From: Escherichia coli
GTDB lineage: Bacteria > Pseudomonadota > Gammaproteobacteria > Enterobacterales > Enterobacteriaceae
Assembly: GCF_011045215.1 (NCBI RefSeq)
Contig: NZ_CP049201.1
Reading direction: 5' to 3' (one strand)
DNA length: 64,000 nucleotides
Shown: positions 49,238-61,832 of the stretch, piece by piece
How the letters are laid out: every line of letters begins with the position of its first letter
Position numbering within the stretch: position 1 is the stretch's first letter
Translations under genes and position numbers: made by a program
Notes under the pieces: model-generated
The model's database searches: none
What the model was told of the DNA's origin: nothing
The model's input: only the letters and a program-made list of their open reading frames with translations

Positions 49238-49238
49238 A

Positions 49239-49420: not shown

Positions 49421-49452
49421 TAATAAATAACAACTAACAGGGAGTAAAGGCG

Positions 49453-50679
49453 ATGGGAATTAACGAAATCATCATGTACATCATGATGTTCTTTATGCTG
49501 ATAGCTGCCGTAGACAGGATCCTGTCGCAGTTCGGCGGTTCTGCTCGTTTCCTCGGTAAGTTCGGTAAAAGTATCGAAGGATCAGGCGGTCAGTTCGAAG
49601 AAGGCTTTATGGCAATGGGCGCACTGGGCCTGGCGATGGTCGGTATGACCGCGCTGGCACCGGTACTGGCTCACGTACTCGGGCCGGTAATTATCCCGGT
49701 TTACGAAATGCTCGGCGCAAACCCGTCAATGTTCGCCGGAACGCTGCTGGCGTGCGATATGGGCGGCTTCTTCCTCGCCAAAGAGCTGGCGGGCGGCGAC
49801 GTAGCAGCGTGGCTATACTCTGGGTTAATTCTCGGGTCGATGATGGGGCCAACGATTGTGTTTTCCATTCCGGTGGCGCTCGGCATTATCGAACCTTCTG
49901 ACCGTCGTTATCTGGCGCTCGGCGTGCTGGCGGGCATTGTGACCATTCCGATTGGTTGTATCGCTGGTGGTCTGGTAGCTATGTACTCCGGTGTGCAGAT
50001 CAACGGCCAGCCGGTGGAATTCACTTTCGCCCTGATCCTGATGAACATGATCCCGGTGATCATTGTTGCGATTCTGGTGGCGCTGGGGCTGAAATTCATC
50101 CCGGAAAAAATGATCAACGGCTTCCAGATCTTCGCCAAATTCCTCGTTGCATTGATCACCCTCGGTCTTGCCGCTGCGGTAGTGAAATTCCTGCTTGGCT
50201 GGGAACTGATCCCCGGTCTGGATCCTATCTTTATGGCCCCTGGCGATAAACCCGGTGAGGTGATGCGCGCCATTGAAGTTATCGGTTCTATCTCCTGCGT
50301 TCTGTTAGGGGCGTATCCGATGGTGCTGCTGCTGACCCGCTGGTTTGAAAAACCGCTGATGAGCGTCGGTAAAGTGCTGAATATGAACAACATCGCGGCA
50401 GCCGGCATGGTGGCAACGCTTGCCAACAACATCCCGATGTTCGGCATGATGAAGCAGATGGATACCCGCGGCAAAGTCATCAACTGCGCCTTCGCCGTTT
50501 CTGCTGCTTTCGCCCTGGGCGACCACTTAGGGTTCGCCGCTGCCAACATGAATGCCATGATCTTCCCGATGATTGTCGGCAAGTTGATCGGCGGCGTAAC
50601 GGCGATTGGCGTGGCGATGATGCTGGTGCCAAAAGACGACGCGACCGCAGCTAAAACCGAAGCGGAGGCACAATCGTGA
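49453..50679 (+). CDS. eutH: Ethanolamine permease EutH
   Basis: 408-aa polytopic membrane ORF. Confidence 0.85.
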   Translation: MGINEIIMYIMMFFMLIAAVDRILSQFGGSARFLGKFGKSIEGSGGQFEEGFMAMGALGLAMVGMTALAPVLAHVLGPVIIPVYEMLGANPSMFAGTLLACDMGGFFLAKELAGGDVAAWLYSGLILGSMMGPTIVFSIPVALGIIEPSDRRYLALGVLAGIVTIPIGCIAGGLVAMYSGVQINGQPVEFTFALILMNMIPVIIVAILVALGLKFIPEKMINGFQIFAKFLVALITLGLAAAVVKFLLGWELIPGLDPIFMAPGDKPGEVMRAIEVIGSISCVLLGAYPMVLLLTRWFEKPLMSVGKVLNMNNIAAAGMVATLANNIPMFGMMKQMDTRGKVINCAFAVSAAFALGDHLGFAAANMNAMIFPMIVGKLIGGVTAIGVAMMLVPKDDATAAKTEAEAQS

Positions 50680-52079
50680 ACACTCGCCAGCTACTGAGCG
50701 TCGGTATCGATATCGGCACTACCACCACCCAGGTGATTTTCTCCCACCTGGAACTGGTTAACCGTGCGGCGGTGTCGCAGGTGCCGCGCTACGAATTCAT
50801 CAAACGCGAAATTAGCTGGCAAAGCCCGGTGTTCTTTACCCCTGTCGATAAACAGGGTGATTTAAAAGAAGCGGAACTGAAATCGCTGATTTTAGAGCAA
50901 TATCAGGCTGCGGGCATTGCACCGGAAAGCGTTGATTCTGGTGCCATCATCATCACCGGTGAAAGCGCGAAAACCCGCAATGCTCGCCCGGCGGTGATGG
51001 CGCTCTCTCAGTCGCTGGGCGATTTTGTCGTTGCCAGCGCCGGGCCGCACCTCGAATCCGTGATCGCCGGTCACGGAGCCGGGGCACAAACCCTTTCTGA
51101 ACAACGGCTGTGTCGGGTACTGAATATCGACATCGGCGGTGGCACCGCGAACTACGCCCTGTTCGATGCCGGAAAAATCAGCGGCACTGCCTGCCTCAAC
51201 GTCGGTGGTCGCCTGCTGGAAACCGACAGCCAGGGGCGCGTGGTTTACGCTCATAAACCGGGGCAGATGATTGTGGATGAGTGCTTCGGCGCAGGCACCG
51301 ACGCCCGTTCGCTGACCGGCGCGCAGCTGGTGCAGGTTACCCGGCGGATGGCAGAGCTGATTGTCGAAGTGATTGACGGAACGCTCTCGCCGCTCGCGCA
51401 GGCATTGATGCAAACCGGTTTGCTGCCCGCAGGTGTTACGCCCGAAATCATTACGCTTTCTGGCGGCGTGGGCGAATGTTATCGCCACCAGCCCGCCGAC
51501 CCGTTCTGTTTTGCCGATATTGGCCCGCTTCTGGCAACGGCGCTGCATGACCATCCGCGCCTGCGTGAGATGAACGTGCAGTTTCCGGCGCAAACCGTGC
51601 GTGCCACGGTGATTGGCGCGGGGGCACATACCCTTTCGCTCTCTGGCAGCACAATCTGGCTTGAGGGCGTACAACTGCCGCTGCGCAATTTGCCGGTGGC
51701 GATCCCGATTGATGAAACGGATCTGGTGAGTGCCTGGCAACAGGCGCTGATTCAACTGGATCTTGATCCCAAAACTGACGCGTACGTGCTGGCGCTTCCC
51801 GCCTCGCTGCCTGTGCGTTACGCCGCGGTACTGACGGTCATCAACGCGTTGGTCGATTTCGTCGCGCGTTTTCCGAATCCGCATCCCCTGCTGGTGGTGG
51901 CCGGGCAGGACTTTGGTAAAGCTCTGGGCATGTTGTTGCGCCCACAGCTACAACAACTCCCGTTGGCAGTCATTGACGAAGTGATTGTCCGCGCGGGGGA
52001 CTATATCGACATTGGTACGCCTCTTTTTGGCGGATCGGTTGTGCCGGTGACGGTGAAATCACTCGCATTTCCTTCCTGA
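50676..52079 (+). CDS. eutA: Ethanolamine ammonia-lyase reactivase EutA
   Basis: 467-aa ORF, ATGA overlap with eutH; ends at the island junction. Confidence 0.85.
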   Translation: MNTRQLLSVGIDIGTTTTQVIFSHLELVNRAAVSQVPRYEFIKREISWQSPVFFTPVDKQGDLKEAELKSLILEQYQAAGIAPESVDSGAIIITGESAKTRNARPAVMALSQSLGDFVVASAGPHLESVIAGHGAGAQTLSEQRLCRVLNIDIGGGTANYALFDAGKISGTACLNVGGRLLETDSQGRVVYAHKPGQMIVDECFGAGTDARSLTGAQLVQVTRRMAELIVEVIDGTLSPLAQALMQTGLLPAGVTPEIITLSGGVGECYRHQPADPFCFADIGPLLATALHDHPRLREMNVQFPAQTVRATVIGAGAHTLSLSGSTIWLEGVQLPLRNLPVAIPIDETDLVSAWQQALIQLDLDPKTDAYVLALPASLPVRYAAVLTVINALVDFVARFPNPHPLLVVAGQDFGKALGMLLRPQLQQLPLAVIDEVIVRAGDYIDIGTPLFGGSVVPVTVKSLAFPS

Positions 52080-52172
52080 ATACTGTAGTTATCAGGCGTG
52101 GCGCTGGGTTGCGGGGTGTTAGTGGGATTATATCCGGCTGTGTATCCGGTCGGGGTGATTGGTCTGTATAGC

Positions 52173-52198
52173 AAAACCCGGCGCGGGGCCGGGTGAAC
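52173..52198 (-). terminator. Rho-independent terminator after island gene 52201-52764
   Basis: Minus strand reads ACCCGGCcccgcGCCGGGTTTTG; an identical hairpin recurs at 53821-53843. Confidence 0.55.
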
Positions 52199-52200
52199 TA

Positions 52201-52764
52201 TCATTCAGGGAACAAGTTGATTTGAAGCAAACTGCCAATGTATTTACCAGTGCTTTTAATTTTTCGCTTTGATGGCTTACACGAATTCAGGTTGACACCA
52301 GCCTGGCTAGATATTGGCTTGTATTGCCGCTCCGCCAGTACGATCAGGTCTGCCGCGTCTTTTAGCTTTCCATCGTTAGCCAGTTCCAATGCTCGATCCG
52401 CCATTTGCCCGCATTGTTGAATCAGCTTAAGTTGCGATACCTCCAGTCGCAATTGCTGGATTCGTTCTACCACTTTCGCCCTAATGCGCTTAGTTTCACG
52501 CATTCCCATTCTTAATGCCTGGTTGCCAGTAAGTGAGTAAACCTCTTTTTCTTTCCTGAAGTTTGCGGCTTTACCGTCAGCTTGGACGCGCATTTTATGC
52601 GCTTCCAAGAATTCGCCCTCCAATTCATCCCTGATCTTCGCGTTGAATCTGTCGTTCTTGAGTTCATTTAACCCTTCCGCCTTGCGGATCTGGTTGATTA
52701 ACTCCAACAATTCATCACTGCGGATACGCCACTCGCTATCAACCTGTACCAAGTCAAACATGTT
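52201..52764 (-). CDS. Hypothetical island protein (about 187 aa from ATG MFDLVQVD; track ORF extends to a TTG at 52854)
   Basis: ORF track; SD-like gggag upstream of the internal ATG; coiled-coil-rich; no confident family assignment. Confidence 0.5.
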   Translation of the reverse strand, partial: NMFDLVQVDSEWRIRSDELLELINQIRKAEGLNELKNDRFNAKIRDELEGEFLEAHKMRVQADGKAANFRKEKEVYSLTGNQALRMGMRETKRIRAKVVERIQQLRLEVSQLKLIQQCGQMADRALELANDGKLKDAADLIVLAERQYKPISSQAGVNLNSCKPSKRKIKSTGKYIGSLLQINLFPE

Positions 52765-52920
52765 GTTGCTCCCGTTTTGCTGCCATAGGGCAACGGCTCG
52801 CCAGCCTTTATCACCTCCTTTAGTTGTTGCGATTCTTAACTGAATGGTTATCAAAACGCTGCGTTAATATCATTGATATGTATCAAATTTGTTTTGTGAC
52901 GCGACAATGCCTTGTGAATA

Positions 52921-52948
52921 TCAATAAAAAACCCAGCGCTATGGCTGG
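52921..52948 (-). terminator. Rho-independent terminator after island gene 52995-53723
   Basis: Minus strand CCCAGCcatagcGCTGGG followed by TTTTTTATTG. Confidence 0.55.
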
Positions 52949-52994
52949 GCTTCTCTTGATGGCTGGTTTTGTAGCTAATCGTTGGCTTTAAGGG

Positions 52995-53723
52995 TTAAGC
53001 AACAATATTAATCCCGCTCCTTGTCGCTGCCTCTTTGGCAATTTTCCCCTCGTCCTCCAGTTTAGCTAACGCCTTGTACATCCAGTGGCGGCCCGGTGCG
53101 CCATGCAGCTTGCCATCTTTGCCGATCTTACCGAACGCATGTAACGCCAAATCGTCGATAGTCCCCTTGTATCCGCCTTGCTCCTTAAGCCATTGCTCAA
53201 GCTGTTCTACTTTGAATTTTGCCGGACGTCCGCCAGCCGCTTTTTGTTGTTTAGCTGGTTCTTCTGCAATATCGCTTTTGTTGTTTAAGTCCGTCATGAC
53301 TGGTTCTCCTACAATAGCGTCGCCCTTGGTCTCGATTTGTTGATTAACTGGTTTGTCTACAATATCGATTTTGTTGTTTAGCTGGTTTTTCAACATATCA
53401 ATCTCAGCCTTTAGCGCCTCGTTTTCTCTGGCTAGTTCTTCGCAACGCTTGATAAATTTTTGTTCCATGCCGTCCGGGCTATCAACGTGCGCCGTACCCA
53501 TTACGATCTTCCCGTTGCTATCGAAGATGACAGCTTGCCAACCGACTGCGGCGAGCATTTTAAACACATCATCAGCGGTCTTGTTTGTTGTATCGCGACG
53601 CCCTTTAAACTTGTGGCTAGCAGCGCCTTTGCCTTTGAAGCCCATTGCCTCAGCGACATCTTGCCGCGTCATCTTGCGAGCGCGCTTGTTCATGCCTAAC
53701 TCAACCCAATCCATGTATTCCAT
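52995..53723 (-). CDS. Hypothetical island protein, basic N-terminus plus coiled-coil and internal repeats
   Basis: 242-aa ORF; repeated NNKIDIVDKPVNQQ / NNKSDIAEEPAKQQ segments, mirrored by imperfect DNA tandem repeats around 53280-53400. Confidence 0.55.
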   Translation of the reverse strand: MEYMDWVELGMNKRARKMTRQDVAEAMGFKGKGAASHKFKGRRDTTNKTADDVFKMLAAVGWQAVIFDSNGKIVMGTAHVDSPDGMEQKFIKRCEELARENEALKAEIDMLKNQLNNKIDIVDKPVNQQIETKGDAIVGEPVMTDLNNKSDIAEEPAKQQKAAGGRPAKFKVEQLEQWLKEQGGYKGTIDDLALHAFGKIGKDGKLHGAPGRHWMYKALAKLEDEGKIAKEAATRSGINIVA

Positions 53724-53820
53724 ACATTACCTCATTTTGTCGCTAAACGTTTTGCTTTCTAATTTATCAACAAAAAAGCGGGTGATGGTAGCCGCTTTGA
53801 TGGGGAAGTTGACAGGGATC

Positions 53821-53843
53821 AAAAACCCGGCGCGGGGCCGGGT
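53821..53843 (-). terminator. Rho-independent terminator (second copy of the 52173 hairpin)
   Basis: Minus strand ACCCGGCcccgcGCCGGGTTTTTGATC, just downstream of gene 53861-54091. Confidence 0.55.
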
Positions 53844-53860
53844 ATTAGCAAGTTAGATGA

Positions 53861-54091
53861 TTACTGGGTATCGCTGTCAGAAAGTAGTCCAATTGATTTA
53901 AAGAATTTCATCACATCCTGATAGCGATACATGACGCCCCGCCCGGTTCCCAGCACATCAACAGGGTCGGGGAATGGAGTTCCGTTCTGTTCCCATTTCT
54001 TACGCCACGAATAAAACGTTCCCCTGCTAATTCCGCCCAGCATCCGGCAGATGGCAGGGCGGCTAAGAAGGATTACTTCATTTTTATCCAT
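53861..54091 (-). CDS. AlpA/excisionase-like HTH DNA-binding protein
   Basis: 76 aa; LSRPAICRMLGGISRGTFYSWRKKW resembles the AlpA-family HTH. Confidence 0.5.
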   Translation of the reverse strand: MDKNEVILLSRPAICRMLGGISRGTFYSWRKKWEQNGTPFPDPVDVLGTGRGVMYRYQDVMKFFKSIGLLSDSDTQ

Positions 54092-54110
54092 TGTTTAATC
54101 TCCCGTGTGT

Positions 54111-54299
54111 TTATTTTGCGTAGATTAAGGCAAATGCTCTTTTGGCTTTGCTTAGTTCGTATTCGCGTTTTTCTATGATTGCCATCAGTTCTTGTGCGGT
54201 GGCTGGCACGCCCGCTCTTATCAGCGCAATCTTAGTATCCATAGCGCACACTCTTTCACGCACCATATCGAAGATAATTTCCGCTCTATCGTGTTTCAT
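54111..54299 (-). CDS. Small hypothetical island protein (62 aa)
   Basis: ORF track; co-directional and closely spaced with the AlpA-like gene. Confidence 0.4.
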   Translation of the reverse strand: MKHDRAEIIFDMVRERVCAMDTKIALIRAGVPATAQELMAIIEKREYELSKAKRAFALIYAK

Positions 54300-54502
54300 G
54301 ATTTCACCTCATATTTGTTGCTAAACCTTGTAAACCCTTGTTTGACTACAAAATACACCTGGTTAAGCGACTGATAAAATGATTTAGGTCAATTTATTGG
54401 TTGATGATTTATGTCTGATTGGATTTGTCTACAAATGGCAGGTTAGTCAACAAATGATGAAACCAGGGAATGGCGGTTATAATGTCAGCGGGGATTGTGA
54501 GA

Positions 54503-54545
54503 AAGGCCCGGGTAGGTTGCTAACTGCCTGGGCCTTTATTTTTGG
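54503..54545 (+). terminator. Plus-strand rho-independent terminator candidate inside the minus-strand gene array
   Basis: aaaggcccgggtagg..cctgggccttt hairpin (about 14 bp stem with two G-U pairs) followed by atttttgg; on the minus strand no U-tract follows. Confidence 0.45.
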
Positions 54546-54648
54546 CGCGTGTACGTGAAATCTGGAAAATTTGCAGGGTAGTTGTTGAGGGATTTTTCGC
54601 GTAGGAGCGTGAAGGGTCCGCCAGTCATCGCCCTGACGTAGCGGTGAA

Positions 54649-55050
54649 TTACTTGCGAGGCTCACCCATCGGCCAGGCACCTTCATTGCGACGATAACCA
54701 ATCCGGTACTCTTCCGGCAGCGGCAAGCCCTGCTCACGATATGGACGCAGATCGAAGCCAAAAACAGGATCGTCGTCGTAGGCGAGGAATAGCCCGGCAG
54801 GCTCTGCCACGCGTTCGATAATCAGTTCCCCATCTTCAACGAAGAAGATCAGATTATCGCGAAAGTCCGTTACCTCACTGACGTGATAACATTCGGCATG
54901 TGCGTCCAGCCAGGCTTCTCGGTATTCCTGAATCTCGGCTTCTGACCATGTTGAAACAGGACGCTCCCAAATTCCCAGGCTGGATTTGCCCTGGCGGGAG
55001 AATAATTTTGCCTCTTTGCTCTGCTCTGGTTTTCTGTTTAAAAAGCTCAT
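54649..55050 (-). CDS. Hypothetical island protein (133 aa)
   Basis: ORF track; SD ggagaa upstream of ATG; start overlaps a TAA of an upstream open frame (TAATG). Confidence 0.5.
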   Translation of the reverse strand: MSFLNRKPEQSKEAKLFSRQGKSSLGIWERPVSTWSEAEIQEYREAWLDAHAECYHVSEVTDFRDNLIFFVEDGELIIERVAEPAGLFLAYDDDPVFGFDLRPYREQGLPLPEEYRIGYRRNEGAWPMGEPRK

Positions 55051-55186
55051 TATTCTTCTCCTTTGAACGGATTGTTCTTGCTCTCTAATAACTTAGCGCG
55101 ACCCAGTAACGTCCGGGCAAGCGCCTCCGCCTTCCTTAGCCTAAGCCCTGCGTCTTCTGCGTCCAGATCTACATTCCTGATAGCCT

Positions 55187-55450
55187 CTACAGCCTGCTCC
55201 GCTGCGTCCGGGCGTGAATCCACTTAAATATGCCGATATGCTCACGAAAGTCTGGATGCTCATATTGCCAGCGGCAGATTGTTCTGAAGCTCGGCATGTC
55301 AGGCATGTTGCCAATCTCTCTGAGACTATGGCCTTCAGCTACCAGCAAGCAGATTTCTTCAGCGATAGCGACCCCATACTTAGCGCTTTTTCTGCTTAAA
55401 CTTGTGACATCAACAGGTAAGTTATTGATTTCTTTATCATCACCCTTCAT
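55187..55450 (-). CDS. Hypothetical HTH-like island protein (87 aa)
   Basis: ORF track; SLREIGNMPDMPSFRTICRWQ segment is HTH-like; preceded by the 11-bp repeat array. Confidence 0.45.
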   Translation of the reverse strand: MKGDDKEINNLPVDVTSLSRKSAKYGVAIAEEICLLVAEGHSLREIGNMPDMPSFRTICRWQYEHPDFREHIGIFKWIHARTQRSRL

Positions 55451-55522
55451 AATTACCCCCGAATTGATAGCGAATTGATAGCGAATTACCCCGAATTACC
55501 CCCGAATTACCCCCGAATCACC
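55450..55522. repeat. Array of seven 10-11 bp direct repeats (gaattaccccc / gaattgatagc)
   Basis: taattaccccc, gaattgatagc x2, gaattacccc, gaattaccccc x2, gaatcacc, read directly from sequence. Confidence 0.9.
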
Positions 55523-55527
55523 ATCAT

Positions 55528-55809
55528 TTAACCCTCGCCTACGTCTGCGTCGATGCTTGCTAACTGGCTGTGTAGATCGCGTTCAATCATTTTTACCTTT
55601 TTCACAAAATCCCTTTCCTCGGCGGTGGCGGGCGCGCCCTGGGCTATGTTTTTCGTGAGGTCGTGGAAAGTGCCGAAAACATAAAGGGAGAACAGCCTTA
55701 ATTGTTGCCGCTTCATTGGCAAATCACTGTTGCTATGTTTGATCTCAGCGACGCCTTTCGAAATAACACGGGCCATCCCATGACAAATTCTTAACGTAAG
55801 CGCAGACAT
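55528..55809 (-). CDS. Hypothetical island protein (93 aa)
   Basis: ORF track only. Confidence 0.4.
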   Translation of the reverse strand: MSALTLRICHGMARVISKGVAEIKHSNSDLPMKRQQLRLFSLYVFGTFHDLTKNIAQGAPATAEERDFVKKVKMIERDLHSQLASIDADVGEG

Positions 55810-55930
55810 GATATTTACTCCCCGACTGGTATAATGAACGTGGTTTTAAACGTTGCTATTTGCTAACCATTTAATCTGTTAACTCAATTTCGCATTGTTG
55901 GCCCGGCACGAACACCGGGCTTTTCTTTAC

Positions 55931-56272
55931 CTATTCGAAATAGCTTCCAATATCCGGTGTCCGGGTATCAGTTTTCCGGGTCGGCTCGAAGTACGATTCC
56001 AGATCCGGCGTTTTCGGCCCACGCTGGGCGTTGGCGGCGGGTTGCTTTTCTTCTGGCTGTTCCGGCTGTTTACTACCAAATCGGCGCTCCAGTTGGTCCA
56101 TCAGCACTACCATCATTTCCTGGACCAGCTTTTCATCGGCTTTATCAAGGTTCTCCAATACCATCGCCATCCCTTTGCGGAATTTAAGCTCAGCGTCGTC
56201 CGGTTCCGGTGCTGATTCGTTTGCTTTAACTGCCAGGGCGATCCGGCGTTTTGCTTCATCCAAAAAATTCAT
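55931..56272 (-). CDS. Hypothetical acidic island protein ending in SYFE motifs (113 aa)
   Basis: ORF track; C-terminus DLESYFEPTRKTDTRTPDIGSYFE. Confidence 0.5.
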   Translation of the reverse strand: MNFLDEAKRRIALAVKANESAPEPDDAELKFRKGMAMVLENLDKADEKLVQEMMVVLMDQLERRFGSKQPEQPEEKQPAANAQRGPKTPDLESYFEPTRKTDTRTPDIGSYFE

Positions 56273-56277
56273 TTTGT

Positions 56278-56721
56278 TTATTCCCCCATGTGGAAATAGT
56301 CATCTAAGCGGCGATTAAACTCGTCGCTGCCATCGAAATATTCACGGATACTTTTATTGACCAGATCATCACCGTCGAAATACTGGCGCGTGAAATCGTC
56401 CAATTCCCCATCGAAGTATTGACGTGTGAAATCGTCTAATTCCCCTTCAAAATATTGACGCGCATCAGGCGCTCTGTTTGGCGCTGTAGCAATCTCAGAT
56501 TGATTGCCCTGTAACTTATCGACGTTTGCTAAATACACGCCCAGTGAGCTGTTTGTTCCCATTACCGCAAGCATTTTCCGGCGATCTGCCATGTTCGGCG
56601 CGAGCGATGATAATTGAGCTTTAATTTTGTCCACTTCCTGATTAACAATACGGTCAATCAGTGGTTGATTCGTGCGAATAATTTCCTGTGCCAACTGGCG
56701 AATATATTCTTTGCGTGTCAT
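56278..56721 (-). CDS. Hypothetical island protein with tandem QYF[ED]GELDDFTR repeats (147 aa)
   Basis: ORF track; encoded by 36-bp tandem DNA repeats at about 56376-56463. Confidence 0.5.
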   Translation of the reverse strand: MTRKEYIRQLAQEIIRTNQPLIDRIVNQEVDKIKAQLSSLAPNMADRRKMLAVMGTNSSLGVYLANVDKLQGNQSEIATAPNRAPDARQYFEGELDDFTRQYFDGELDDFTRQYFDGDDLVNKSIREYFDGSDEFNRRLDDYFHMGE

Positions 56722-56739
56722 TTCTTATCTCCGTTCATC

Positions 56740-57123
56740 TCATTTCTGTAAAAAACCCATACCGTGGCCCAGGCGATTTGAAATTTTCCCGGCAAGCATC
56801 CGGCGAATATGTTTTTCGTTGATGATGTCGTGAGTGACCGGATCTTCACCTTTCATACATTCCGGCATCTGGTCAAACAATACGGAAGCGCCTTCATCAA
56901 TAATCTCAGTTAAGACTGCTGGCAGCATATTAATGATGCGTTCTGCTTCGTCGTTCATTGCTTTATCGAACGCTTTTTTATCCATTGCTTCGGCGGATGG
57001 TTTGTAATTGTCGCCAGTCAGGTTAAGGTAAGTGTTGTTTGGGTGATACATGGCATTCACTCCTTTTACTTTGATTGTTGCGATTTCTTTGTTTTTGTTA
57101 ATTGTGGTGCCTTTGACTTTCAT
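56740..57123 (-). CDS. Hypothetical island protein (127 aa)
   Basis: ORF track; ATGA start/stop overlap with the upstream HNH-like gene. Confidence 0.45.
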   Translation of the reverse strand: MKVKGTTINKNKEIATIKVKGVNAMYHPNNTYLNLTGDNYKPSAEAMDKKAFDKAMNDEAERIINMLPAVLTEIIDEGASVLFDQMPECMKGEDPVTHDIINEKHIRRMLAGKISNRLGHGMGFLQK

Positions 57124-57539
57124 GCTGCTTCTTCCTTCAATAATTGTGGCAATTTGCCTGTTAGTTCGATTTCTTCATTAATAGATGCAAGTAACTGTCT
57201 CAGTTTGCGATGTAATAGCTGGTGACGCTCTCTCGGCATTTTTACCAGGTTGCTTAAGCGGTTATTCTGCGGATCGTAGTCCCGGTGATGGATATCATAT
57301 TTTCGCTCATCGTAAACACCGTAGCACCATAACCAGGCAGCCTTTTCTATTGTCATGCAGGTACGTTTTCCGTTGCTTAAACAAATGGTTATACTCAGGT
57401 GACCGCGATGTTTTTCGTTTAAGCTGCCTTTAATTACCTGGCCTGTGCTGCGGTTGTGAAATAAACCAGTTTCAGGGTCGTAGTGATATTTCTGTCGTAA
57501 TATATCAACTGATAACCGTAGTCTTGTAAGATTGTCCAT
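57120..57539 (-). CDS. HNH-family endonuclease-like protein
   Basis: 139 aa; AAWLWCYGVYDERKYDIHHRDYDPQNNRLSNL resembles the phage HNH_3 pattern (from memory). Confidence 0.55.
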   Translation of the reverse strand: MDNLTRLRLSVDILRQKYHYDPETGLFHNRSTGQVIKGSLNEKHRGHLSITICLSNGKRTCMTIEKAAWLWCYGVYDERKYDIHHRDYDPQNNRLSNLVKMPRERHQLLHRKLRQLLASINEEIELTGKLPQLLKEEAA

Positions 57540-57571
57540 GATGTTCTACCTCAATGTGATTGCTGTGTTAA

Positions 57572-57757
57572 TTATCTTTCTTCTTGTGGCCTATTCAGCC
57601 AGGCCTCGATCTCGCTACGCCAGAATAATAAACGACAATTTCGCGGCGTAAATGGTTGGGGTATTGTCTTATCTTTTAATAGCCATCTTCGAATCGTTCT
57701 TGTTGATACCCCCGCTATTAATGCGAAAGCTCGCAGATCTATAACTTCATCTCTCAT
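57572..57757 (-). CDS. AlpA-family transcriptional regulator
   Basis: Internal ATG with SD gaggt; MRDEVIDLRAFALIAGVSTRTIRRWL...LFWRSEIEAWL matches the AlpA HTH signature; the track's N-terminal extension is low-complexity repeat translation. Confidence 0.6.
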   Translation of the reverse strand: MRDEVIDLRAFALIAGVSTRTIRRWLLKDKTIPQPFTPRNCRLLFWRSEIEAWLNRPQEER

Positions 57758-57780
57758 GTTCTTACCTCGATTAAAAAGGA

Positions 57781-57839
57781 CCGCCCCCAGGGAAAGAAGA
57801 AAGAGGAAAGAGGAAAGAGGAAAAACTTCCTGGAGGCGG
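57781..57839. repeat. Homopurine heptamer repeat (GAAAGAR x4) inside an 11-bp inverted repeat
   Basis: ccgcccccagg [agggaaagaagaaagaggaaagaggaaagaggaaaaa] cttcctggaggcgg; 24-82 nt upstream of the AlpA-like start codon. Confidence 0.85.
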
Positions 57840-58537
57840 GTAATTCGGATTCCTTGAATCAATATCCCATGTGATACTTAATATTATAAAGGGCGGCGGG
57901 CTATGTCGCTATTTTTGCCATAGTGTGACACCATTAATTTATTAACAAAAAGTGCTATTTATTAAATCTTTTTTCGGCAGGTGCAAGAAAAATAATTGCG
58001 ACACGGTAGGGTAGCGGGCGATAATAATCATGTAAGGAGTAGCCACCTTACGCCTCCAAATGTGATCGATAAAAATAATAGTCTCAATTCTTTCTCCCGC
58101 TTCTCGGCGGTTTTTTTGCCTGCAATCACACATCAAAAAAACACATCGAATTGATATGCCTTTAAAACGCAATATAACGCATTTTGACGGCCTTAATTTT
58201 TGCCTATCCACTCGGAAGCGTAAGCCTGTTTTGATTCGTCTGGCGTGGAATGGTGCGGCGGTAATATCAGATCTCAGCGTTCTGTGTGGTGGGATGGAAT
58301 AGCCTGGCAGGATCTGCGTGTGATTTCATTCATCCAACCTTGGATGAATGGTCCGATCTGGTCAGTAGTCCGGCACAAATAAAAAGCGCCTGCGGGCGTA
58401 GCAGACGCTTTGTGTACAGGCTTATCAGTACGGGATGTGCACGAATGATTATACCACCCTCAGAAAAACGTTTGCTTTTGCACTTAAACGGATAAGTGGT
58501 ATTTCTTGGTCTTCATTGGTTTTAGCTCACCATAGGC

Positions 58538-58765
58538 TCATTTAGGTGCGCCCCTGTCGATAATTCGGTACATGTTCTCGGTATATCTCCCGTTAATCAC
58601 CGTTCTGGTAACAACAATCACACCGTTTTCCTCCAGAAAGGCAATGGCCCGCTTCACTCCCTGGCGGCTTACACCGGATAGCTGCGCCAGCCTGTCAATG
58701 GAGATGTTGTATTTGTCCGGCTGGCTTGTCAGGATCTGGAATACCGCTCGTGCTGTTTTCGTCAT
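58538..58765 (-). CDS. Winged-helix/HTH DNA-binding protein (75 aa), candidate island regulator
   Basis: ISIDRLAQLSGVSRQGVKRAIAFLEENGVIV HTH-like segment; divergent from the plus-strand cargo module. Confidence 0.5.
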   Translation of the reverse strand: MTKTARAVFQILTSQPDKYNISIDRLAQLSGVSRQGVKRAIAFLEENGVIVVTRTVINGRYTENMYRIIDRGAPK

Positions 58766-59037
58766 GGCAAAAACTCATTGAAATTGGATACCCTTAGAAC
58801 GCTCTCAAACGCTCCGTAATGCGATGAGAATTTTACCTAAGCAAGTGTAGCTCTTTATTAGTTTTATGATGCCGTAGGCCGATAGAAGGTGCGCTCTCTG
58901 AAGTTTCATTGTCTATCAGTGGTGGGTAATGCTGCCTTTACTATTGGCGTCAAGAAAATCACTGGTGTAGATTGGGCGAATAGTTTACTATTCAAACAAG
59001 GCACAATGGCCTTAGCGGATTGATGTCAGGAGATACC

Positions 59038-59385
59038 ATGTCAAAAATAGTTACTTTGTTTGCGACTAAGCGAGAAGGGAAATCCCTTTCTGTGCGCACT
59101 CGTAAGCCAAAAGCTATGACTGGCTTGCGTAAAACAAATCGTCTGACGCATCTTGACGCGTTAGCGTATCGACTAGGATACCAGTTGGTGCGCGGTAAAA
59201 GTGTCATGTTTCGCTACACTGCTACTCTCGATCACGAAGAAAACAAAGTGATGAATGCGGCCTCGCCTATGGCTGTACCACGAGTAAAAAAAATGACGTT
59301 CACACAAGCGTGTGATTTATCAAAAGATTTATTCGATTCACGAGAAGAACGCTTAAAGAGTGTAAGCTTTGATGGTCCAGAATGA
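59038..59385 (+). CDS. Hypothetical basic protein (115 aa), candidate antitoxin or partner of downstream gene
   Basis: ATG at 59038 with SD aggaga 5 nt upstream; stop overlaps the downstream start by 14 nt; AT-rich. Confidence 0.5.
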   Translation: MSKIVTLFATKREGKSLSVRTRKPKAMTGLRKTNRLTHLDALAYRLGYQLVRGKSVMFRYTATLDHEENKVMNAASPMAVPRVKKMTFTQACDLSKDLFDSREERLKSVSFDGPE

Positions 59386-59887
59386 ATTTATTGGTAAGGT
59401 CTACAGTGATAACAAGTTTAAAACAAACGATGAATTAAAGAGCTTTAAGGATTCGTTTATTTATCATTGGAGATATGGACATCATCCTGATTTTGGAAAG
59501 GATACTCTTTTCCATAAACCCCCGTGTGTATATCCTATCCATTTACGTAAAGTCCATGTAAATATTGGTCTTTATACCAATCAGTACGGCTATAGCGGGA
59601 CAGAACAATGCTGGGATGACTGGTCTACTGGTCGTTATGGTCCCGGTGGTTTCGAAAAAGTTACCCCTACATCTGATGCTTATCTTATATACGCTGTATG
59701 TAAAAATAGAAATGCTGGCGTGTTAGACTTCTGGTTTCCTCCCGCACACAAAAACGCTGAGTTCGAATCCTCTGTACAGTTTGTGGCTGAGATGGCTGAT
59801 AAGTTTTATGAGTCTATCAAGGCGGACCCGATGCCGCGCGATCAGAATCCTTGGCATACGGGGTATATAGTTAAAAAACCAGCCTGA
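59372..59887 (+). CDS. YafO-like toxin-domain candidate (171 aa)
   Basis: FIYHWRYGHHPDFGKDTLF...HLRKVHVN...SDAYLIYAV resembles remembered YafO motifs (FISYKRDG..PDTFGRDALY, HIHL, AHLVYC); family assignment unverified. Confidence 0.45.
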   Translation: MVQNEFIGKVYSDNKFKTNDELKSFKDSFIYHWRYGHHPDFGKDTLFHKPPCVYPIHLRKVHVNIGLYTNQYGYSGTEQCWDDWSTGRYGPGGFEKVTPTSDAYLIYAVCKNRNAGVLDFWFPPAHKNAEFESSVQFVAEMADKFYESIKADPMPRDQNPWHTGYIVKKPA

Positions 59888-60438
59888 TCCACGCAATACT
59901 GATTGTTTTTGGCCTTGTATGGTGTGGTCTGATTTGAGGCAAAATTATTTAATCCCTTAAAAAACTAACTTCAAAAGACTAAAACCAGGGGGATGGTCCC
60001 TCTCGCTCCGCTCCAGGTACCATCCCTGTCGGGATGGGTTTATTGTAGAGTTAAAATTAATTACTCACATCGTCACACCTTGCGAAAGTTTTGCTCAATT
60101 ATCATTCAAACATAGCACAAAAAATATTCGATTTAGTTAGTGTGCACTGACTTTTTTATCAATTTACTTTCATTCGAAAGTCATGGGTTAAATATTAATC
60201 ATCTGGCTGTGGCACGCATGGATTCACCGAGGGTATTTTGGACCATTTGGTCAAAATTCATAAGTACATGATTTCATGGTGATTTATTTTTCTGTATCTT
60301 GCTTTCATTCGAAAGTGGAAACGAAGAATTGGCAATTTATTGATTCAGATCATTGACATTGCATATTTGTGGCGGTTGTCACGGTTGTTTTTTGAGCGCT
60401 TCAACCGTCGATATTGAGTATAAACCCGGCCTTATAGT

Positions 60439-61644
60439 TCACGGTTCAAGTGGATTACCGTCACCAGCCAATATTGAATCAATAGCGTCGGCGTAATCCT
60501 GCATCATTGCTCGCCGTTGCTTCAGGTAGGCCGCCTGGTTATAAACGCCGCGCACACCTTTCGGGACGTGGGCCAATTGGATTTCGATCCAGTCTGGTGA
60601 GTATCTGCCAGACTCATTAAGCGCCGTTGAAAAGGTGGTCCGCCAGCCATGACCAGTGGCAATGGATTTATAGCCGATCCTCTCAAGCGCCTTCAGTATC
60701 GCGCTGGCTGAAAGTGGCTTATCCATGAATCGACCAGGGAAGACGAAAGCACTGTATCCGCTCCTTGTAAACTGGTCCTGTAATAGCTCCACCGCCTGCC
60801 GTGATAGCGGGACCACATGCGGGCGGCGGGCCTTCATGACTTCAGCGGGCAATGTGATTGTTGCGTCCTCCAGGTTTATCCATTCCCAACGGCACAAACG
60901 CAGTTCTGCGGTCCTTAATGCCGTTAATATAAGCAAACGTATTGCCGTCTGAATCTGGACGCTCCCGGCCCTCTCAAGGGCTTTGTAGAAGGCCGGAATT
61001 TCACTAATCGGTATCCACGCGTTGTGACCAGGTCGGCGGGCCTTCAGTGCCGTATCAAGATCTGCAACCGGATTCCTCGTTACCAGTTCGGTGATAACGG
61101 CAAACTTGAAGATCTCACCGATGCGCTGGCGTAGCTTGCGGGCCTGCTCCGGTGCGGTACGTTCTTTCTTCTGGAGTAATGCCAGCACGTCACGGGCGGT
61201 TATATCGACAATCGACCGCTTGCCAAGTACCGGATAGACGTCTTTTTCTAGGGCCGATCTGACCTGTTTTGCATAGGATTCCGACCACCCTCCAACCCTA
61301 GTAGCAAACCAGTCTTCCGCCACCTTCTTAAATCCTGCCGCCATGTTGAGCGCATCAATGGCTTTTTCCTTGCGGGCTTGTTCCACTGGGTTAATTCCAT
61401 TGGCAATAAGGGATCTGCTCTCCGTGGCGCGCCTGCGTGCTTCTTTGAGTGTGATTAGCGGGTAAACACCAATAGCCTGCAAAAACTCTCGTTTATTCAA
61501 CCAATACCTGAATCGCCAGTATTTCGAACCGTTGGGATGCACCAGCAAAAACAGCCCCGGCGTCAGTGAATCGGTGAGTTTATAGGGCTTGTCCTGCGGC
61601 TGTGCGGCGTCTATGGCCTTTGCTGTGAGTGGTGTCTTGCTCAA
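60439..61644 (-). CDS. intZ: P4-type tyrosine integrase
   Basis: 401-aa ORF; N-terminal arm-binding-like domain plus catalytic region (HGWRTT...RGVYN); at the island edge next to eutB as for CPZ-55 IntZ. Confidence 0.85.
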   Translation of the reverse strand: MSKTPLTAKAIDAAQPQDKPYKLTDSLTPGLFLLVHPNGSKYWRFRYWLNKREFLQAIGVYPLITLKEARRRATESRSLIANGINPVEQARKEKAIDALNMAAGFKKVAEDWFATRVGGWSESYAKQVRSALEKDVYPVLGKRSIVDITARDVLALLQKKERTAPEQARKLRQRIGEIFKFAVITELVTRNPVADLDTALKARRPGHNAWIPISEIPAFYKALERAGSVQIQTAIRLLILTALRTAELRLCRWEWINLEDATITLPAEVMKARRPHVVPLSRQAVELLQDQFTRSGYSAFVFPGRFMDKPLSASAILKALERIGYKSIATGHGWRTTFSTALNESGRYSPDWIEIQLAHVPKGVRGVYNQAAYLKQRRAMMQDYADAIDSILAGDGNPLEP

Positions 61645-61832
61645 AACCGGATACCTTGATTTAACGACTGGATAACCCCGATCATGTATCCGGCGCGTTC
61701 GGTTGCGTTCGGCAGGATAAGTAACGGGCGTATTAAGTGGAACACCTTACAGGACAAGGGCTAACGATGAAATAGAATTGTTTGCAGGCTGTGAGAAATG
61801 TTAATCGTCACTTCTTCCTGAGGGAACGACTT

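What the first reader, a model, noticed from the sequence alone, without database searches (positions are those of the whole stretch)
52201..57757. AlpA-led array of about 14 small co-directional genes with translational coupling and no structural genes
From the AlpA-like gene at 57757 down to 52201 every gene is on the minus strand with tight spacing or overlaps (ATGA at 57120-57123, TAATG at 55048-55052). It includes a second AlpA-like gene and an HNH-like nuclease, but no capsid, terminase or primase. This is more like a satellite or PICI-like regulatory remnant than a conventional prophage, and most products have no family I can assign.
Basis: inference. Interest (0 to 1): 0.5.

Follow-up and report, generated by a model that had tools for sequence, protein, structure and literature searches.

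The report
Decayed CPZ-55-type satellite-like island
The gene array belongs to a 9.7-kb mobile island wedged between two ethanolamine-utilisation genes of E. coli; it is a broken copy of a poorly studied family (it includes K-12's 'cryptic prophage' CPZ-55) that looks like a phage parasite carrying its own DNA-packaging and tail-ruler genes.

Summary
The co-directional array is real. It is the main operon, plus three downstream genes, of an IntZ-type integrative island (window 52,072-61,821) inserted at the eutA stop codon. This is the site and integrase (99% identical) of K-12's CPZ-55.

Two of the "small genes" are halves of an Sf6-type small terminase split by a 1-nt deletion. A private ~2.5-kb deletion has also removed a tape measure gene, so this copy is defective.

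Intact relatives are 11-13 kb and keep a fixed order: HTH_17 regulator, HNH, four orphan proteins, 11-bp iterons, TerS, an orphan protein, sometimes an HK97 gp10-like gene, a 726-790-aa tape measure, p62, and an Xis-like gene. None has a large terminase, capsid, tail tube or lysis genes.

Core genes are under purifying selection (dN/dS 0.06-0.38). Six of them have no homologue in 50,697 phage genomes. The same module also sits on integrase-less circular 11.4-kb replicons. The phage-derived parts are closest to temperate siphophage mEp021.

My best reading is a decayed member of an undescribed satellite-like family. No mobilisation has been shown.

The parts
52072..52079 (.). attL core CTTCCTGA, which contains the eutA stop codon
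   Evidence: Read. The same 8 bp recurs at 61,814-61,821. K-12 CPZ-55 has the same junctions. The literature reports an 8-bp duplication TCAGGAAG for CPZ-55 (PMC6379469).
52201..52854 (-). p217, with weak anti-repressor (Ant)-like similarity. The likely start is the ATG at 52,761, giving 186 aa as annotated in the relative.
   Evidence: phrog_8235 at 1e-5 and phrog_1726 at 2e-5. It is 99% identical to its L001 homologue. Its own terminator lies at 52,176-52,194.
52995..53723 (-). p242: N-terminal HTH, repeat-containing coiled middle, conserved C-terminal domain. It is distantly YffS-like.
   Evidence: It is 86% identical to the L004 homologue and 54% to the L001 homologue. The L001 homologue hits regulator PHROGs. 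YffS matches the L001 homologue at 22% identity, E 1e-7. Terminator at 52,926-52,955.
53861..54091 (-).
   Evidence: phrog_4745 at 2.6e-11. It is 86.5% identical to mEp021_02, which lies next to the mEp021 integrase. A terminator follows at 53,825-53,843.
54111..54299 (-). p62, a conserved orphan protein
   Evidence: 100% identical to the L001 homologue and 87% to the L005 homologue. No family hit.
54617..54626 (.). Deletion junction where about 2.5 kb, including the tape measure gene, is missing
   Evidence: Window 54,293-54,626 aligns to L001 4,782-5,111, and window 54,617-57,053 aligns to L001 7,603-10,031. The missing L001 ORF hits phrog_1538 tape measure at 1e-105. None of 5,426 E. coli genomes spans this junction.
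54649..55050 (-). p133, a core orphan whose start overlaps the TerS stop (TAATG). YffP is a distant relative.
   Evidence: Alignment A7 shows a conserved N-terminal ~90 aa across 7 family members. No Pfam, PHROG, NCBIfam or PDB hit.
55050..55450 (-). Small terminase (Sf6 type), a pseudogene split by a 1-nt deletion near 55,209/55,210
   Evidence: Alignment A1. The intact 133-aa homologue matches Sf6 gp1 structures at 3.6e-8 and Pfam PF20901 at 1.3e-11. phrog_1482 at 8e-12. K-12 YffO is 50% identical.
55454..55522 (-). Six phased 11-bp iterons immediately 5' of the TerS ATG. This is a candidate packaging (TerS-binding) site.
   Evidence: Tandem Repeats Finder gives two period-11 arrays. Three exact ATTCGGGGGTA copies lie within 65 bp, against 0.74 expected in the whole window. 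Analogous 11-bp arrays sit in front of terS in L004/L005, L006 and L008.
55528..55809 (-). p93, a core orphan (YffM family)
   Evidence: 100% identical to the L001 homologue, 68% to L004 and 41% to L006. YffM is 37% identical to the L004 homologue of p93. dN/dS 0.06.
55931..56272 (-). p113, an acidic core orphan with C-terminal SYFE motifs
   Evidence: 70-82% identical in L001, L004, L005 and L006. dN/dS 0.15-0.26.
56278..56721 (-). p147, a core orphan with four to five YF(D/E)G repeats
   Evidence: Only 8 cluster representatives among 1.84 billion proteins. A 49%-identical homologue lies in the same gene order. dN/dS 0.08-0.24. Alignment A8.
56740..57051 (-). p103, a core orphan. The mechanical ORF extends to 57,123.
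   Evidence: Homologues are 103 aa. An AAGGAG site lies before the ATG at 57,051. dN/dS 0.08-0.21.
57120..57539 (-). HNH_3 endonuclease of 139 aa
   Evidence: Pfam HNH_3 at 1e-6, phrog_99 at 9e-11, PADLOC homing endonuclease at 2e-5. An HNH gene occupies the same position in L005-L008, L014 and L016.
57572..57757 (-). Small MerR/excisionase-type HTH protein of 61 aa that heads the operon ('AlpA-like')
   Evidence: phrog_66 (excisionase and transcriptional regulator) at 3e-7. Pfam HTH_17 at 9.7e-4. An HTH_17 protein holds the same position in all relatives.
58538..58765 (-). 75-aa winged-helix protein, the most conserved island gene. It is found only on IntZ-type backbones and may be the repressor.
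   Evidence: Pfam HTH_11, HTH_24 and HTH_36. Its PHROG hits are to the N-terminal domains of replication initiators. It is 99-100% identical in L001 and L004 and absent from L006. The repressor role is inference.
59020..59887 (+). Cargo pair next to the integrase: a 121-aa protein followed by a 172-aa YafO-like toxin
   Evidence: RefSeq labels the homologue 'YafO family toxin'. phrog_1651 at 9e-43. Pfam YafO_toxin is weak at 9e-3. No PADLOC hit.
60439..61644 (-). IntZ tyrosine integrase (P4 type)
   Evidence: 99% identical to K-12 IntZ. phrog_1 at 4e-68. NCBIfam PRK09692 at 3e-73.
61814..61821 (.). attR core CTTCCTGA, 12 bp upstream of the eutB ATG at 61,833
   Evidence: Read. Homology with the yghO-borne copy L001 stops at 61,814.

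Best explanation
**Shown**
- The array is the regulator-headed operon, plus three downstream genes, of a 9.7-kb IntZ island in an E. coli chromosome.
- The island sits in the 8-bp site CTTCCTGA at the end of eutA. K-12's CPZ-55 uses the same site and integrase.
- It belongs to a conserved family whose intact members are 11-13 kb and carry, in fixed order:
  - an HTH_17 regulator;
  - an HNH_3 nuclease;
  - four orphan proteins (p103, p147, p113, p93);
  - an array of phased 11-bp iterons;
  - an Sf6-type small terminase;
  - the orphan p133;
  - sometimes an HK97 gp10-like tail-completion protein;
  - a 726-790-aa tape measure protein;
  - p62 and an Xis-like protein.
- No family member read has a large terminase, portal, capsid, tail tube or lysis gene.
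- The module occurs behind the IntZ integrase. It also occurs on integrase-less circular 11.4-kb replicons.
- In this window TerS carries a frameshift and the tape measure gene is deleted.

**Inferred mechanism for the family**
1. A helper siphophage related to mEp021 infects the cell or is induced.
2. The small HTH regulator switches on the operon and, together with the Xis-like protein, directs IntZ to excise the island.
3. The island's TerS binds the iterons and recruits the helper's large terminase, so island DNA is packaged into helper capsids.
4. The island's tape measure and tail-completion proteins are built into helper tails through their helper-like N- and C-termini. This may alter DNA delivery or evade helper-encoded exclusion.

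**Inferred for this copy**
It can no longer direct its own packaging or supply a tape measure, so it is a grounded remnant. The integrase, both HTH genes, the toxin pair and the orphan genes remain intact.
For: - **Site and integrase.** IntZ is 99% identical to K-12's and the flanks are 98% identical. The att core matches K-12 and the published 8-bp duplication.
- **Decay of this copy.** The TerS frameshift is seen. The tape measure deletion has a junction that none of 5,426 genomes spans.
- **Family architecture.** The fixed gene order was read in 9 further loci beyond the window: L001, L004, L005, L014, L015, L016, L006/7, L008/9 and L010/11. K-12's CPZ-55 keeps the TerS-centred part of the order.
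- **TerS.** It matches Sf6 gp1 structures at 3.6e-8 and Pfam PF20901.
- **Tail genes.**
  - The tape measure covers phrog_1538 full-length at 1e-105.
  - The gp10-like gene hits phrog_5 and Pfam PF04883.
- **Selection.** dN/dS is 0.06-0.38 in all core genes, including the orphans and the tape measure.
- **Not phage debris.**
  - The six orphans have no hit in 50,697 phage genomes.
  - p147 has 8 cluster representatives in 1.84 billion proteins, and these keep the same gene order.
- **Two backbones.**
  - The circular contigs are exact permutations, and one has a 30-bp terminal overlap.
  - They carry a DUF5906/P4-alpha-like helicase, or a 336-aa orphan next to iterons, and no integrase.
- **A second chromosomal site.** One copy lies in yghO.
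- **Link to mEp021.**
  - The Xis-like protein is 86% identical.
  - The gp10-like protein is 45% identical (E 2e-41).
  - The tape measure N-terminus is 60% identical and the C-terminus 65%, with an unrelated middle.
  - The TerS HTH region is 35% identical.
- **Iterons.** They lie in front of terS on both backbones.
Against: - No excision, replication, packaging or transfer has been observed here or in the literature I could search.
- The family is absent from IMG/VR viral contigs.
- IntZ-type islands have no recognisable replication module.
- The helper is not identified.
  - The mEp021 integrase is only 27% identical.
  - The mEp021 TerS C-terminus is unlike the island's invariant ...NPF.G tail.
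  - mEp021 has no iterons before its terS.
- The iteron sequence does not simply co-vary with the TerS sequence. The iterons could be an operator rather than a pac site.
- HNH_3 is the usual homing-endonuclease family.
- Many family members are decayed: the window copy, K-12 and ATCC 8739.
- The paper on the O157 Sakai prophage pool lists two untypable small prophages as not excising. I could not establish whether either is this island.
Confidence: 0.6

Rival explanations
1. It is an ordinary cryptic prophage: what remains after an mEp021-like temperate phage lost most of its genome. No satellite life cycle is involved, and the family resemblance reflects vertical inheritance of one old remnant at the eut site.
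For: - TerS, the gp10-like gene, the tape measure termini and the Xis-like gene are all homologous to mEp021 genes and occur in the same relative order.
- The element is annotated and discussed as a 'cryptic' or 'grounded' prophage.
- Several copies are visibly decaying.
Against: - The same reduced gene set is kept while TerS diverges to about 50% and the tape measures to 33-39% amino-acid identity, with dN/dS of 0.06-0.38.
- The set occurs on three unrelated backbones: IntZ, a DUF5906 circle and a Rep-plus-iteron circle. It also occurs at a second chromosomal site.
- Six core genes, the HNH gene and the iterons have no counterpart in mEp021 or any of 50,697 phages.
- The integrase is only 27% identical to that of mEp021.
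- Random decay would not repeatedly remove exactly TerL-to-connector, tube-to-chaperone and tip-to-fibre.
Confidence: 0.2
2. It is a defence or competition island. The TerS and tape measure copies would act as poisons or decoys that sabotage packaging and tail assembly of invading mEp021-like siphophages, in the manner of tail-assembly interference. The island would spread by ordinary integrase, plasmid or transduction routes rather than by dedicated hijacking.
For: - A toxin-like cargo pair sits in the integrase-proximal hot spot.
- Tail-assembly interference systems are known on PICIs, P4-like elements and prophages (PMC11364771).
- The tape measure keeps helper-like termini around a foreign middle, as a dominant-negative subunit might.
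- An HNH nuclease is present.
Against: - No PADLOC hit apart from a generic homing-endonuclease model.
- The tape measure is full-length against the phage profile and under purifying selection along its whole length. That is more than a decoy needs.
- A TerS with its own phased iteron array argues for packaging of the island itself.
- Interference and satellite transfer are not mutually exclusive.
Confidence: 0.1
3. It is a small integrative or plasmid element unrelated to phage particles, for example one mobilised by conjugation or not mobile at all. The phage-like genes would be incidental cargo.
For: - Integrase-less circular relatives carry plasmid-style replication genes and iterons.
- A review suggested that cryptic prophages spread by conjugation (PMC6379469).
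Against: - No relaxase, oriT or transfer gene was found in any family member by PHROG, Pfam or NCBIfam.
- The conserved part of the family is precisely the TerS-to-tape-measure module, while the backbone is the part that varies.
- The circles are absent from 72,556 PLSDB plasmids.
Confidence: 0.05

Closest known systems
CPZ-55 cryptic prophage of E. coli K-12 (intZ, yffL-yffS)
   Same: - Same integrase (99% identity), same insertion point after the eutA stop codon, and the same 8-bp core.
- TerS corresponds to YffO (50% identity), p93 to YffM, p133 to the N-terminus of YffP, and the p242 family distantly to YffS.
- Both copies lack the tape measure gene.
   Different: - K-12's copy is 6.8 kb and lacks the HNH gene, p103, p147 and p113.
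- It carries YffL, YffN, YffQ and YffR instead. YffQ has a homologue on the circular relative L006.
- The window copy is 9.7 kb, and its closest relative is a 12.4-kb island with a tape measure gene.
Gram-negative PICIs (EcCI type, e.g. EcCICFT073) and SaPIs that carry their own TerS
   Same: - A P4-type integrase with a specific att site.
- A small excisionase-type regulator at the head of a one-directional operon.
- A size of 10-13 kb.
- A small terminase without a large one, which is the classic SaPI way of redirecting helper packaging (established knowledge).
- Accessory cargo next to the integrase.
   Different: - The IntZ islands have no primase-replicase or recognisable ori.
- Intact members encode tail proteins (a tape measure, and in some a tail-completion protein). 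SatelliteFinder treats tail genes as forbidden components for PICI and cfPICI (PMC10085698).
- Some members are integrase-less circles, whereas that paper describes all known satellites as integrated.
- The regulator hits HTH_17, not Pfam Phage_AlpA.
Capsid-forming PICIs (cf-PICI)
   Same: These are satellites that encode some virion structural proteins themselves and take the rest from a helper.
   Different: - cf-PICIs encode capsid, portal, protease, connectors and TerL, and they take the tails from the helper.
- This family does the reverse. It has no head genes or TerL, but it has a tape measure and sometimes a tail-completion protein.
Satellite phage P4 and P4-like elements
   Same: - About 11 kb, found in E. 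coli, with a P4-family integrase.
- P4 can exist integrated or as a plasmid.
- The circular relative L006 has a P4-alpha-like helicase domain (phrog_1156 at 3e-30, DUF5906).
   Different: - There are no homologues of sid, psu, delta or epsilon, and no C4/CI RNA (Rfam found nothing).
- Packaging specificity comes from an Sf6-type TerS rather than a P2-type cos site.
- The family carries a tape measure gene.
Temperate siphophage mEp021 (mEpimmI group)
   Same: It is the closest phage source of the phage-derived parts:
- the Xis-like protein is 86% identical;
- the gp10-like protein is 45% identical;
- the tape measure termini are 60-65% identical and the proteins are of similar length (781 aa against 726-790 aa);
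- both have an Sf6-type TerS.
   Different: - mEp021 is a complete 54.7-kb phage.
- Its integrase is 27% identical.
- Its TerS is 161 aa with an unrelated C-terminus.
- It has no terS iterons.
- None of the six orphan genes is present in it.

Membership tests
CPZ-55 / IntZ island family | IntZ integrase | tested here: met
   401 aa, 99.0% identical to K-12 IntZ. 92-93% identical to the integrases of L001 and L004.
CPZ-55 / IntZ island family | Insertion right after the eutA stop codon, with an 8-bp duplication | tested here: met
   CTTCCTGA at 52,072-52,079 and at 61,814-61,821. This matches the published TCAGGAAG.
CPZ-55 / IntZ island family | Internal genes shared with K-12 CPZ-55 | tested here: met
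   Matches between K-12 genes and the family:
- YffO to TerS at 50% identity.
- YffM to p93 homologues at 36-37%.
- YffP to p133 homologues, weak at 28%.
- YffS to the L001 p242 homologue at 22%.

The other K-12 genes are not shared with the window.
PICI (Gram-negative type) | Integrase plus a site-specific att | tested here: met
PICI (Gram-negative type) | AlpA regulator heading the operon | tested here: inconclusive
   A 61-aa HTH protein sits in the right position. It hits phrog_66 at 3e-7 and HTH_17 at 1e-3 but not Pfam Phage_AlpA.
PICI (Gram-negative type) | Primase-replicase and ori | tested here: not met
   No primase, helicase or Rep hit in any island ORF. Only the circular relative L006 has a DUF5906 helicase.
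PICI (Gram-negative type) | Packaging-redirection function (TerS, Rpp or cos) | tested here: inconclusive
   An Sf6-type TerS is present in the family and is preceded by iterons. In the window it is a frameshifted pseudogene.
PICI (Gram-negative type) | No tail, holin or other virion structural genes | tested here: not met
   The feature is met in the window only because of a deletion. Intact relatives encode a tape measure and sometimes a gp10-like protein.
PICI (Gram-negative type) | Induction and transfer by a helper phage | not testable with these tools
   This needs lysate, qPCR or transduction experiments.
P4-like satellite | Alpha primase together with sid, psu and delta, and a P2-type cos site | tested here: not met
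   No such hits in PHROG, Pfam or NCBIfam. No C4 RNA in Rfam.
cf-PICI | Own capsid, portal, protease, TerL and head-tail adaptors | tested here: not met
   None is present in the window or in any relative read.
Complete or merely truncated mEp021-like prophage | Gene content derived from that phage, including early, lysis and head genes | tested here: not met
   Only Xis, TerS, the gp10-like gene and the tape measure are homologous. Six core genes are absent from all phages searched, and the integrase is 27% identical.

The most novel reading that the evidence does not exclude
CPZ-55 of E. coli K-12, the eut-site islands found in about 8% of E. coli (including O157:H7), and a set of integrase-less 11.4-kb circles would together form an undescribed family of phage satellites.

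This family would redirect packaging with its own Sf6-type small terminase and iteron site. Unlike any characterised satellite, it would also supply its own tape measure protein, and in some members a tail-completion protein, to helper tails of mEp021-like siphophages.

That would be the mirror image of capsid-forming PICIs. A satellite-specific tape measure could set tail length. It could also let satellite DNA enter cells that exclude the helper.
Probability: 0.4. Interest if true: 0.8.

Novelty: new variant of a known kind. Interest (0 to 1): 0.6.

Why it matters
- **A new reading of a familiar locus.** CPZ-55 has been annotated in K-12 as a 'cryptic prophage' and is treated in the papers I read as phage debris. 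The comparison here suggests it is a worn copy of a compact, selected element with its own packaging specificity.
- **A blind spot in satellite detection.** Current tools forbid tail genes and expect an integrase (PMC10085698). Elements like these are therefore excluded by design, so the known satellite repertoire may be biased.
- **A new hijacking strategy, if confirmed.** A satellite that brings its own tape measure would be new, and it is directly testable in E. coli.
- **A consequence for the host.** The island splits the eut operon between eutA and eutB. Published work says this impairs ethanolamine use in K-12 (PMC6379469).

Tried and rejected
**Protein-family and structure searches that gave nothing**
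- NCBIfam gave nothing for the 10 operon proteins.
- PADLOC gave only a generic homing-endonuclease hit.
- Pfam and PDB sequence searches gave nothing for p133.
- AlphaFold2 on a 7-sequence p133 alignment reached a mean pLDDT of 52.8, so I ran no fold search. The idea that p133 is a tail assembly chaperone remains untested.

**Collection scans that gave nothing**
- Rfam found no RNA family in the island, and no P4-type C4 RNA.
- IMG/VR scans with p133 and with a p147 alignment found no relative.
- A GTDB species-representative scan with a TerS alignment found none. The peptide patterns were narrow, so this says little about host range.
- PLSDB has no complete match to the 11.4-kb circles.

**Regulatory signals**
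- The sigma-70 promoter scan was not above chance, with 13 sites found against 15.7 expected. I make no promoter claim.
- Terminator-like sites were enriched, with 25 found against 12.2 expected.

**Tests of the mEp021 helper idea**
- The island's HNH protein is not related to either mEp021 HNH protein.
- The mEp021 TerS C-terminus and its terS upstream region do not resemble the island's.
- mEp021 itself is therefore not shown to be the helper.
- I looked for simple co-variation between the iteron sequence and the TerS recognition-helix sequence and did not find it.

**Other leads that ended**
- A 98%-identical tape measure C-terminus in strain 2012C-4431 looked like a helper prophage. It was another eut-site island.
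- Literature searches found nothing for CPZ-55, intZ or eutB combined with satellite or PICI, or for satellites with tape measures. One search was wasted on word-start matches to 'euta'.
- I could not tell which O157 Sakai 'Sp' element is this island.

Full report
**1. What is at the coordinates**

ORF listing shows an unbroken run of minus-strand ORFs from 57,757 to 52,201. The run lies in a block of GC 0.41-0.48, while the flanks are at 0.55-0.61. The flanks are eutJ, eutG, eutH and eutA on one side and eutB on the other, and they are 98% identical to E. coli K-12. There is no tRNA in the window.

A 401-aa tyrosine integrase at 60,439-61,644 is 99% identical to K-12 IntZ.

Homology with a copy of the same element inserted elsewhere (L001, inside yghO) runs from 52,072 to 61,814. 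That defines the mobile unit.

The ends carry the direct repeat CTTCCTGA, at 52,072-52,079 and 61,814-61,821. The left copy contains the eutA stop codon. The right copy lies 12 bp before the eutB ATG. K-12 has the same junctions. The literature reports the same 8-bp duplication for CPZ-55 and a prevalence of 8% (PMC6379469). I found matching DNA in 456 of 5,426 complete E. coli genomes, or 8.4%, always on the chromosome.

**2.

- The TAATG overlap at 55,048-55,052 is real and conserved.
- The ATGA at 57,120-57,123 is in the sequence. Homologues of the downstream protein are 103 aa and begin at the ATG at 57,051, which has an AAGGAG site in front of it. That overlap is probably an ORF extension.
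- The two ORFs at 55,187-55,450 and 55,050-55,223 are one gene. Against two relatives the window lacks a single base (CACGCCC-GGACGC against CATGCCCAGGACGC), and this splits a 133-aa protein.
- The intact protein is a small terminase. It matches Sf6 gp1 crystal structures at 3.6e-8 over residues 23-107, Pfam Sf6_terminase at 1.3e-11, and phrog_1482.
- The 349-bp gap between p133 and p62 is a scar. Window 54,293-54,626 and 54,617-57,053 align to L001 4,782-5,111 and 7,603-10,031, so about 2.5 kb is missing.
- In L001 the missing stretch holds a 729-aa ORF that covers the tape measure profile phrog_1538 end to end at 1e-105.
- None of 5,426 genomes spans the window's junction, and the two halves always match separately. 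The deletion is therefore private to this lineage.
- The first 'AlpA-like' protein (61 aa from the ATG at 57,757) hits phrog_66 (excisionase and transcriptional regulator) at 3e-7 and Pfam HTH_17 at 1e-3. It does not hit Phage_AlpA.
- The second (76 aa) is 86.5% identical to the small HTH gene that abuts the integrase of phage mEp021. It is best called Xis-like.
- The HNH protein belongs to Pfam HNH_3.

**3. The family**

I read 9 further loci, and K-12's CPZ-55 as a tenth comparison.

| Locus | Backbone and site | Tape measure |
|---|---|---|
| L001 | IntZ, in yghO | 729 aa |
| L002/L004 | IntZ, eut | 729 aa, plus gp10-like |
| L005 | IntZ, eut | 732 aa |
| L014 (O157:H7) | IntZ, eut | 732 aa |
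| L015 | IntZ, eut | 790 aa |
| L016 (ATCC 8739) | IntZ, eut | 726 aa; no TerS annotated |
| L006/L007 | 11.4-kb circle | 788 aa |
| L008/L009 | 11.4-kb circle | 787 aa, plus gp10-like |
| L010/L011 | metagenome fragments | not covered |
| K-12 CPZ-55 | IntZ, eut | none |

The order is constant: HTH_17 regulator, HNH, p103, p147, p113, sometimes a 60-aa ORF, p93, TerS, p133, sometimes an HK97 gp10-like protein, tape measure, p62, Xis-like protein. K-12's CPZ-55 keeps YffM (p93), YffO (TerS), YffP (p133) and YffS (distantly p242-like).

No member has a large terminase, portal, capsid, tube, tip, fibre or lysis gene.

Divergence is mosaic. Between L001 and L004, p147 is 83% identical, TerS 51%, p133 23% and the tape measure 88%. 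The tape measures of L001, L005 and L006 are only 33-39% identical to each other, yet all are full length.

Nei-Gojobori dN/dS is 0.06-0.38 for every core gene, orphans included. The gene set is being maintained by selection, not merely inherited.

**4. Not phage debris**

A concatenation of p103, p147, p113, p93, p133, p62 and the Xis-like protein was searched against 50,697 phage genomes by tblastn. Only the Xis-like part gave hits.

A full HMMER pass of p147 over 1.84 billion cluster representatives found 8 proteins. The most distant full-length one (49% identity) sits in the same gene order, ending in an Sf6-type TerS.

TerS has no phage relative above 41% identity. The tape measure has none above 43%.

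**5. Two kinds of backbone**

TerS homologues P0008 and P0009 lie on contigs of 11,404-11,467 bp from E. coli isolates. These carry the whole module but no integrase.

- L006 and L007 are exact circular permutations. The gene offsets are +9,909 and -1,495, which sum to 11,404. L006 also has a 30-bp terminal overlap.
- L008 and L009 behave the same way, with offsets that sum to about 11,446.
- One type carries an 83-aa HTH protein plus a 529-aa DUF5906/P4-alpha-like helicase (phrog_1156 at 3e-30).
- The other type carries a 336-aa orphan next to five ~22-bp iterons.

Each pair of contigs may come from a single isolate. The pairs therefore support circularity, not prevalence. These circles are absent from PLSDB and from the plasmids of complete E. 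coli genomes. Only the HTH-to-tape-measure module is shared with the chromosomal islands.

**6. Candidate packaging site**

The 77-bp spacer before the TerS ATG in the window consists of six 11-bp units: ATTCGGGGGTA (three exact copies and one 10-nt variant) and ATTCGCTATCA (two copies). L004/L005, L006 and L008 have three to seven TTAGCGA-type units at the same place and with the same period.

The array follows the module onto both backbones and is distinct from the plasmid-type iterons of L008. I infer it is the site where the ring-forming TerS binds. An operator function is not excluded. The iteron sequence does not track the TerS sequence in any simple way.

**7. Link to a phage group**

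mEp021 is a 54.7-kb temperate siphophage of the mEpimmI group (PMC11893012, seen). It is the nearest phage for every phage-derived part:

- the Xis-like protein is 86% identical;
- the gp10-like protein is 45% identical (E 2e-41);
- the tape measure N-terminal 58 aa are 60% identical and the C-terminal 107 aa are 65% identical, around an unrelated middle;
- the TerS HTH region is 35% identical.

The weaker nucleotide matches to the island tape measure's 3' end, where I cross-checked genomes, fall next to mEp021-like TerL and portal genes, for example in STEC306. Such prophages occur in 44 of 5,426 genomes.

Several points argue against mEp021 itself being the helper. Its integrase is 27% identical. 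Its TerS C-terminus differs from the island's invariant NPF-containing tail. It has no terS iterons.

**8. Interpretation**

The most economical reading is a satellite-like family. It has its own excision module, its own packaging specificity and its own internal tail components. It depends on a siphophage for everything else.

The tape measure's helper-like ends and free middle fit a protein that must dock to helper tail-tip and tail-completion partners while differing elsewhere. Whether this changes tail length, the entry route or exclusion sensitivity is speculation.

The window copy has lost TerS function and the tape measure gene, so it is a remnant.

The rival readings are plain prophage decay, a defence island using decoy subunits, and a non-phage mobile element. 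They are weighed in the rival section. None explains as well the conserved reduced gene set on three backbones under purifying selection. None is excluded without experiments.

**9. Novelty**

I found no paper that treats CPZ-55 or eut-site islands as satellites, and none describing a satellite with a tape measure. SatelliteFinder forbids tail genes in its PICI and cfPICI models. Its authors state that all known satellites are integrated. They also set aside more than 6,000 'Type C' elements with only three core genes (PMC10085698).

My literature access is limited to open-access text, so prior description elsewhere is possible.

I rate the locus itself as a decayed member of a new variant of a known kind (phage satellite). 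Interest comes mainly from the family context.

Noticed in passing
window 56375-56462 (inside p147, 56278-56721, minus strand); also the p113 C-terminus at 55931-56000: A 36-bp tandem repeat (2.4 copies) encodes repeated [RQ][EQ]YF[DE]G motifs, with four to five per protein. The motif persists in a homologue that is only 21% identical (L008). The neighbouring p113 ends in two SYFE motifs. This looks like a multivalent short linear motif, and its partner is unknown.
   Followed up: partly
L006 (11,434 bp), L007, L008, L009: These are integrase-less circular ~11.4-kb contigs from E. coli isolates. They carry the same HTH-HNH-orphans-TerS-tape measure module. One type has a DUF5906 helicase and the other has a 336-aa orphan with ~22-bp iterons. 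They are not present in PLSDB.
   Followed up: partly
window 52173-52194 and 53822-53843: Two identical 22-nt terminator hairpins (AAAACCCGGCGCGGGGCCGGGT) follow two different island genes, p217 and the Xis-like gene.
   Followed up: no
window 57791-57823: GGAAAGA repeated 4.7 times (TCTTTCC on the coding strand) lies just upstream of the start codon of the operon-leading HTH gene. It may be a regulatory site.
   Followed up: no
window 59020-59887 (+): An overlapping gene pair (121 aa, then a 172-aa YafO-like protein; phrog_1651 at 9e-43) lies next to the integrase on the opposite strand. It is a likely toxin-antitoxin or defence cargo in the integrase-proximal hot spot. PADLOC gives no hit.
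   Followed up: partly
window 58538-58765 (-): A 75-aa winged-helix gene is 99-100% identical between islands whose integrases differ by 7%. It is absent from the circular relatives. It may be the maintenance repressor of the integrated form.
   Followed up: partly
L003 4954-5043 (K-12 CPZ-55, between yffL and yffM): A 23-bp unit is repeated 3.9 times (AGGTGGGTCAAAAGTTGCCGTTA) at 95% match. These iterons in K-12's own copy have no known function.
   Followed up: no
L001 2493-15003 (NZ_CM143725.1): The closest relative of the window island is inserted in yghO, not in eut. Its core is imperfect: CTTCCTGA on one side and CTTCAATCAGGA on the other. This indicates use of a secondary site.
   Followed up: partly
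L001, L005 and L006 tape measure genes compared with L013 37726-40071: The island tape measures are mosaics. The N-terminal ~60 aa and the C-terminal 100-360 aa resemble the mEp021 tape measure at 46-65% identity, while the middle is unrelated. Two islands with otherwise dissimilar tape measures share a 98%-identical 3' end.
   Followed up: yes
RefSeq annotations under hits H174-H208: The portal gene of mEp021-like prophages is labelled 'anti-CBASS protein Acb1 family protein' in many RefSeq genomes. This is either a fused domain or a transferred annotation.
   Followed up: no
window 49237-49453: The spacer between eutG and eutH contains repeated palindromic sequence. The same peptide strings recur in several overlapping spurious ORFs, which is consistent with ordinary REP elements.
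   Followed up: no
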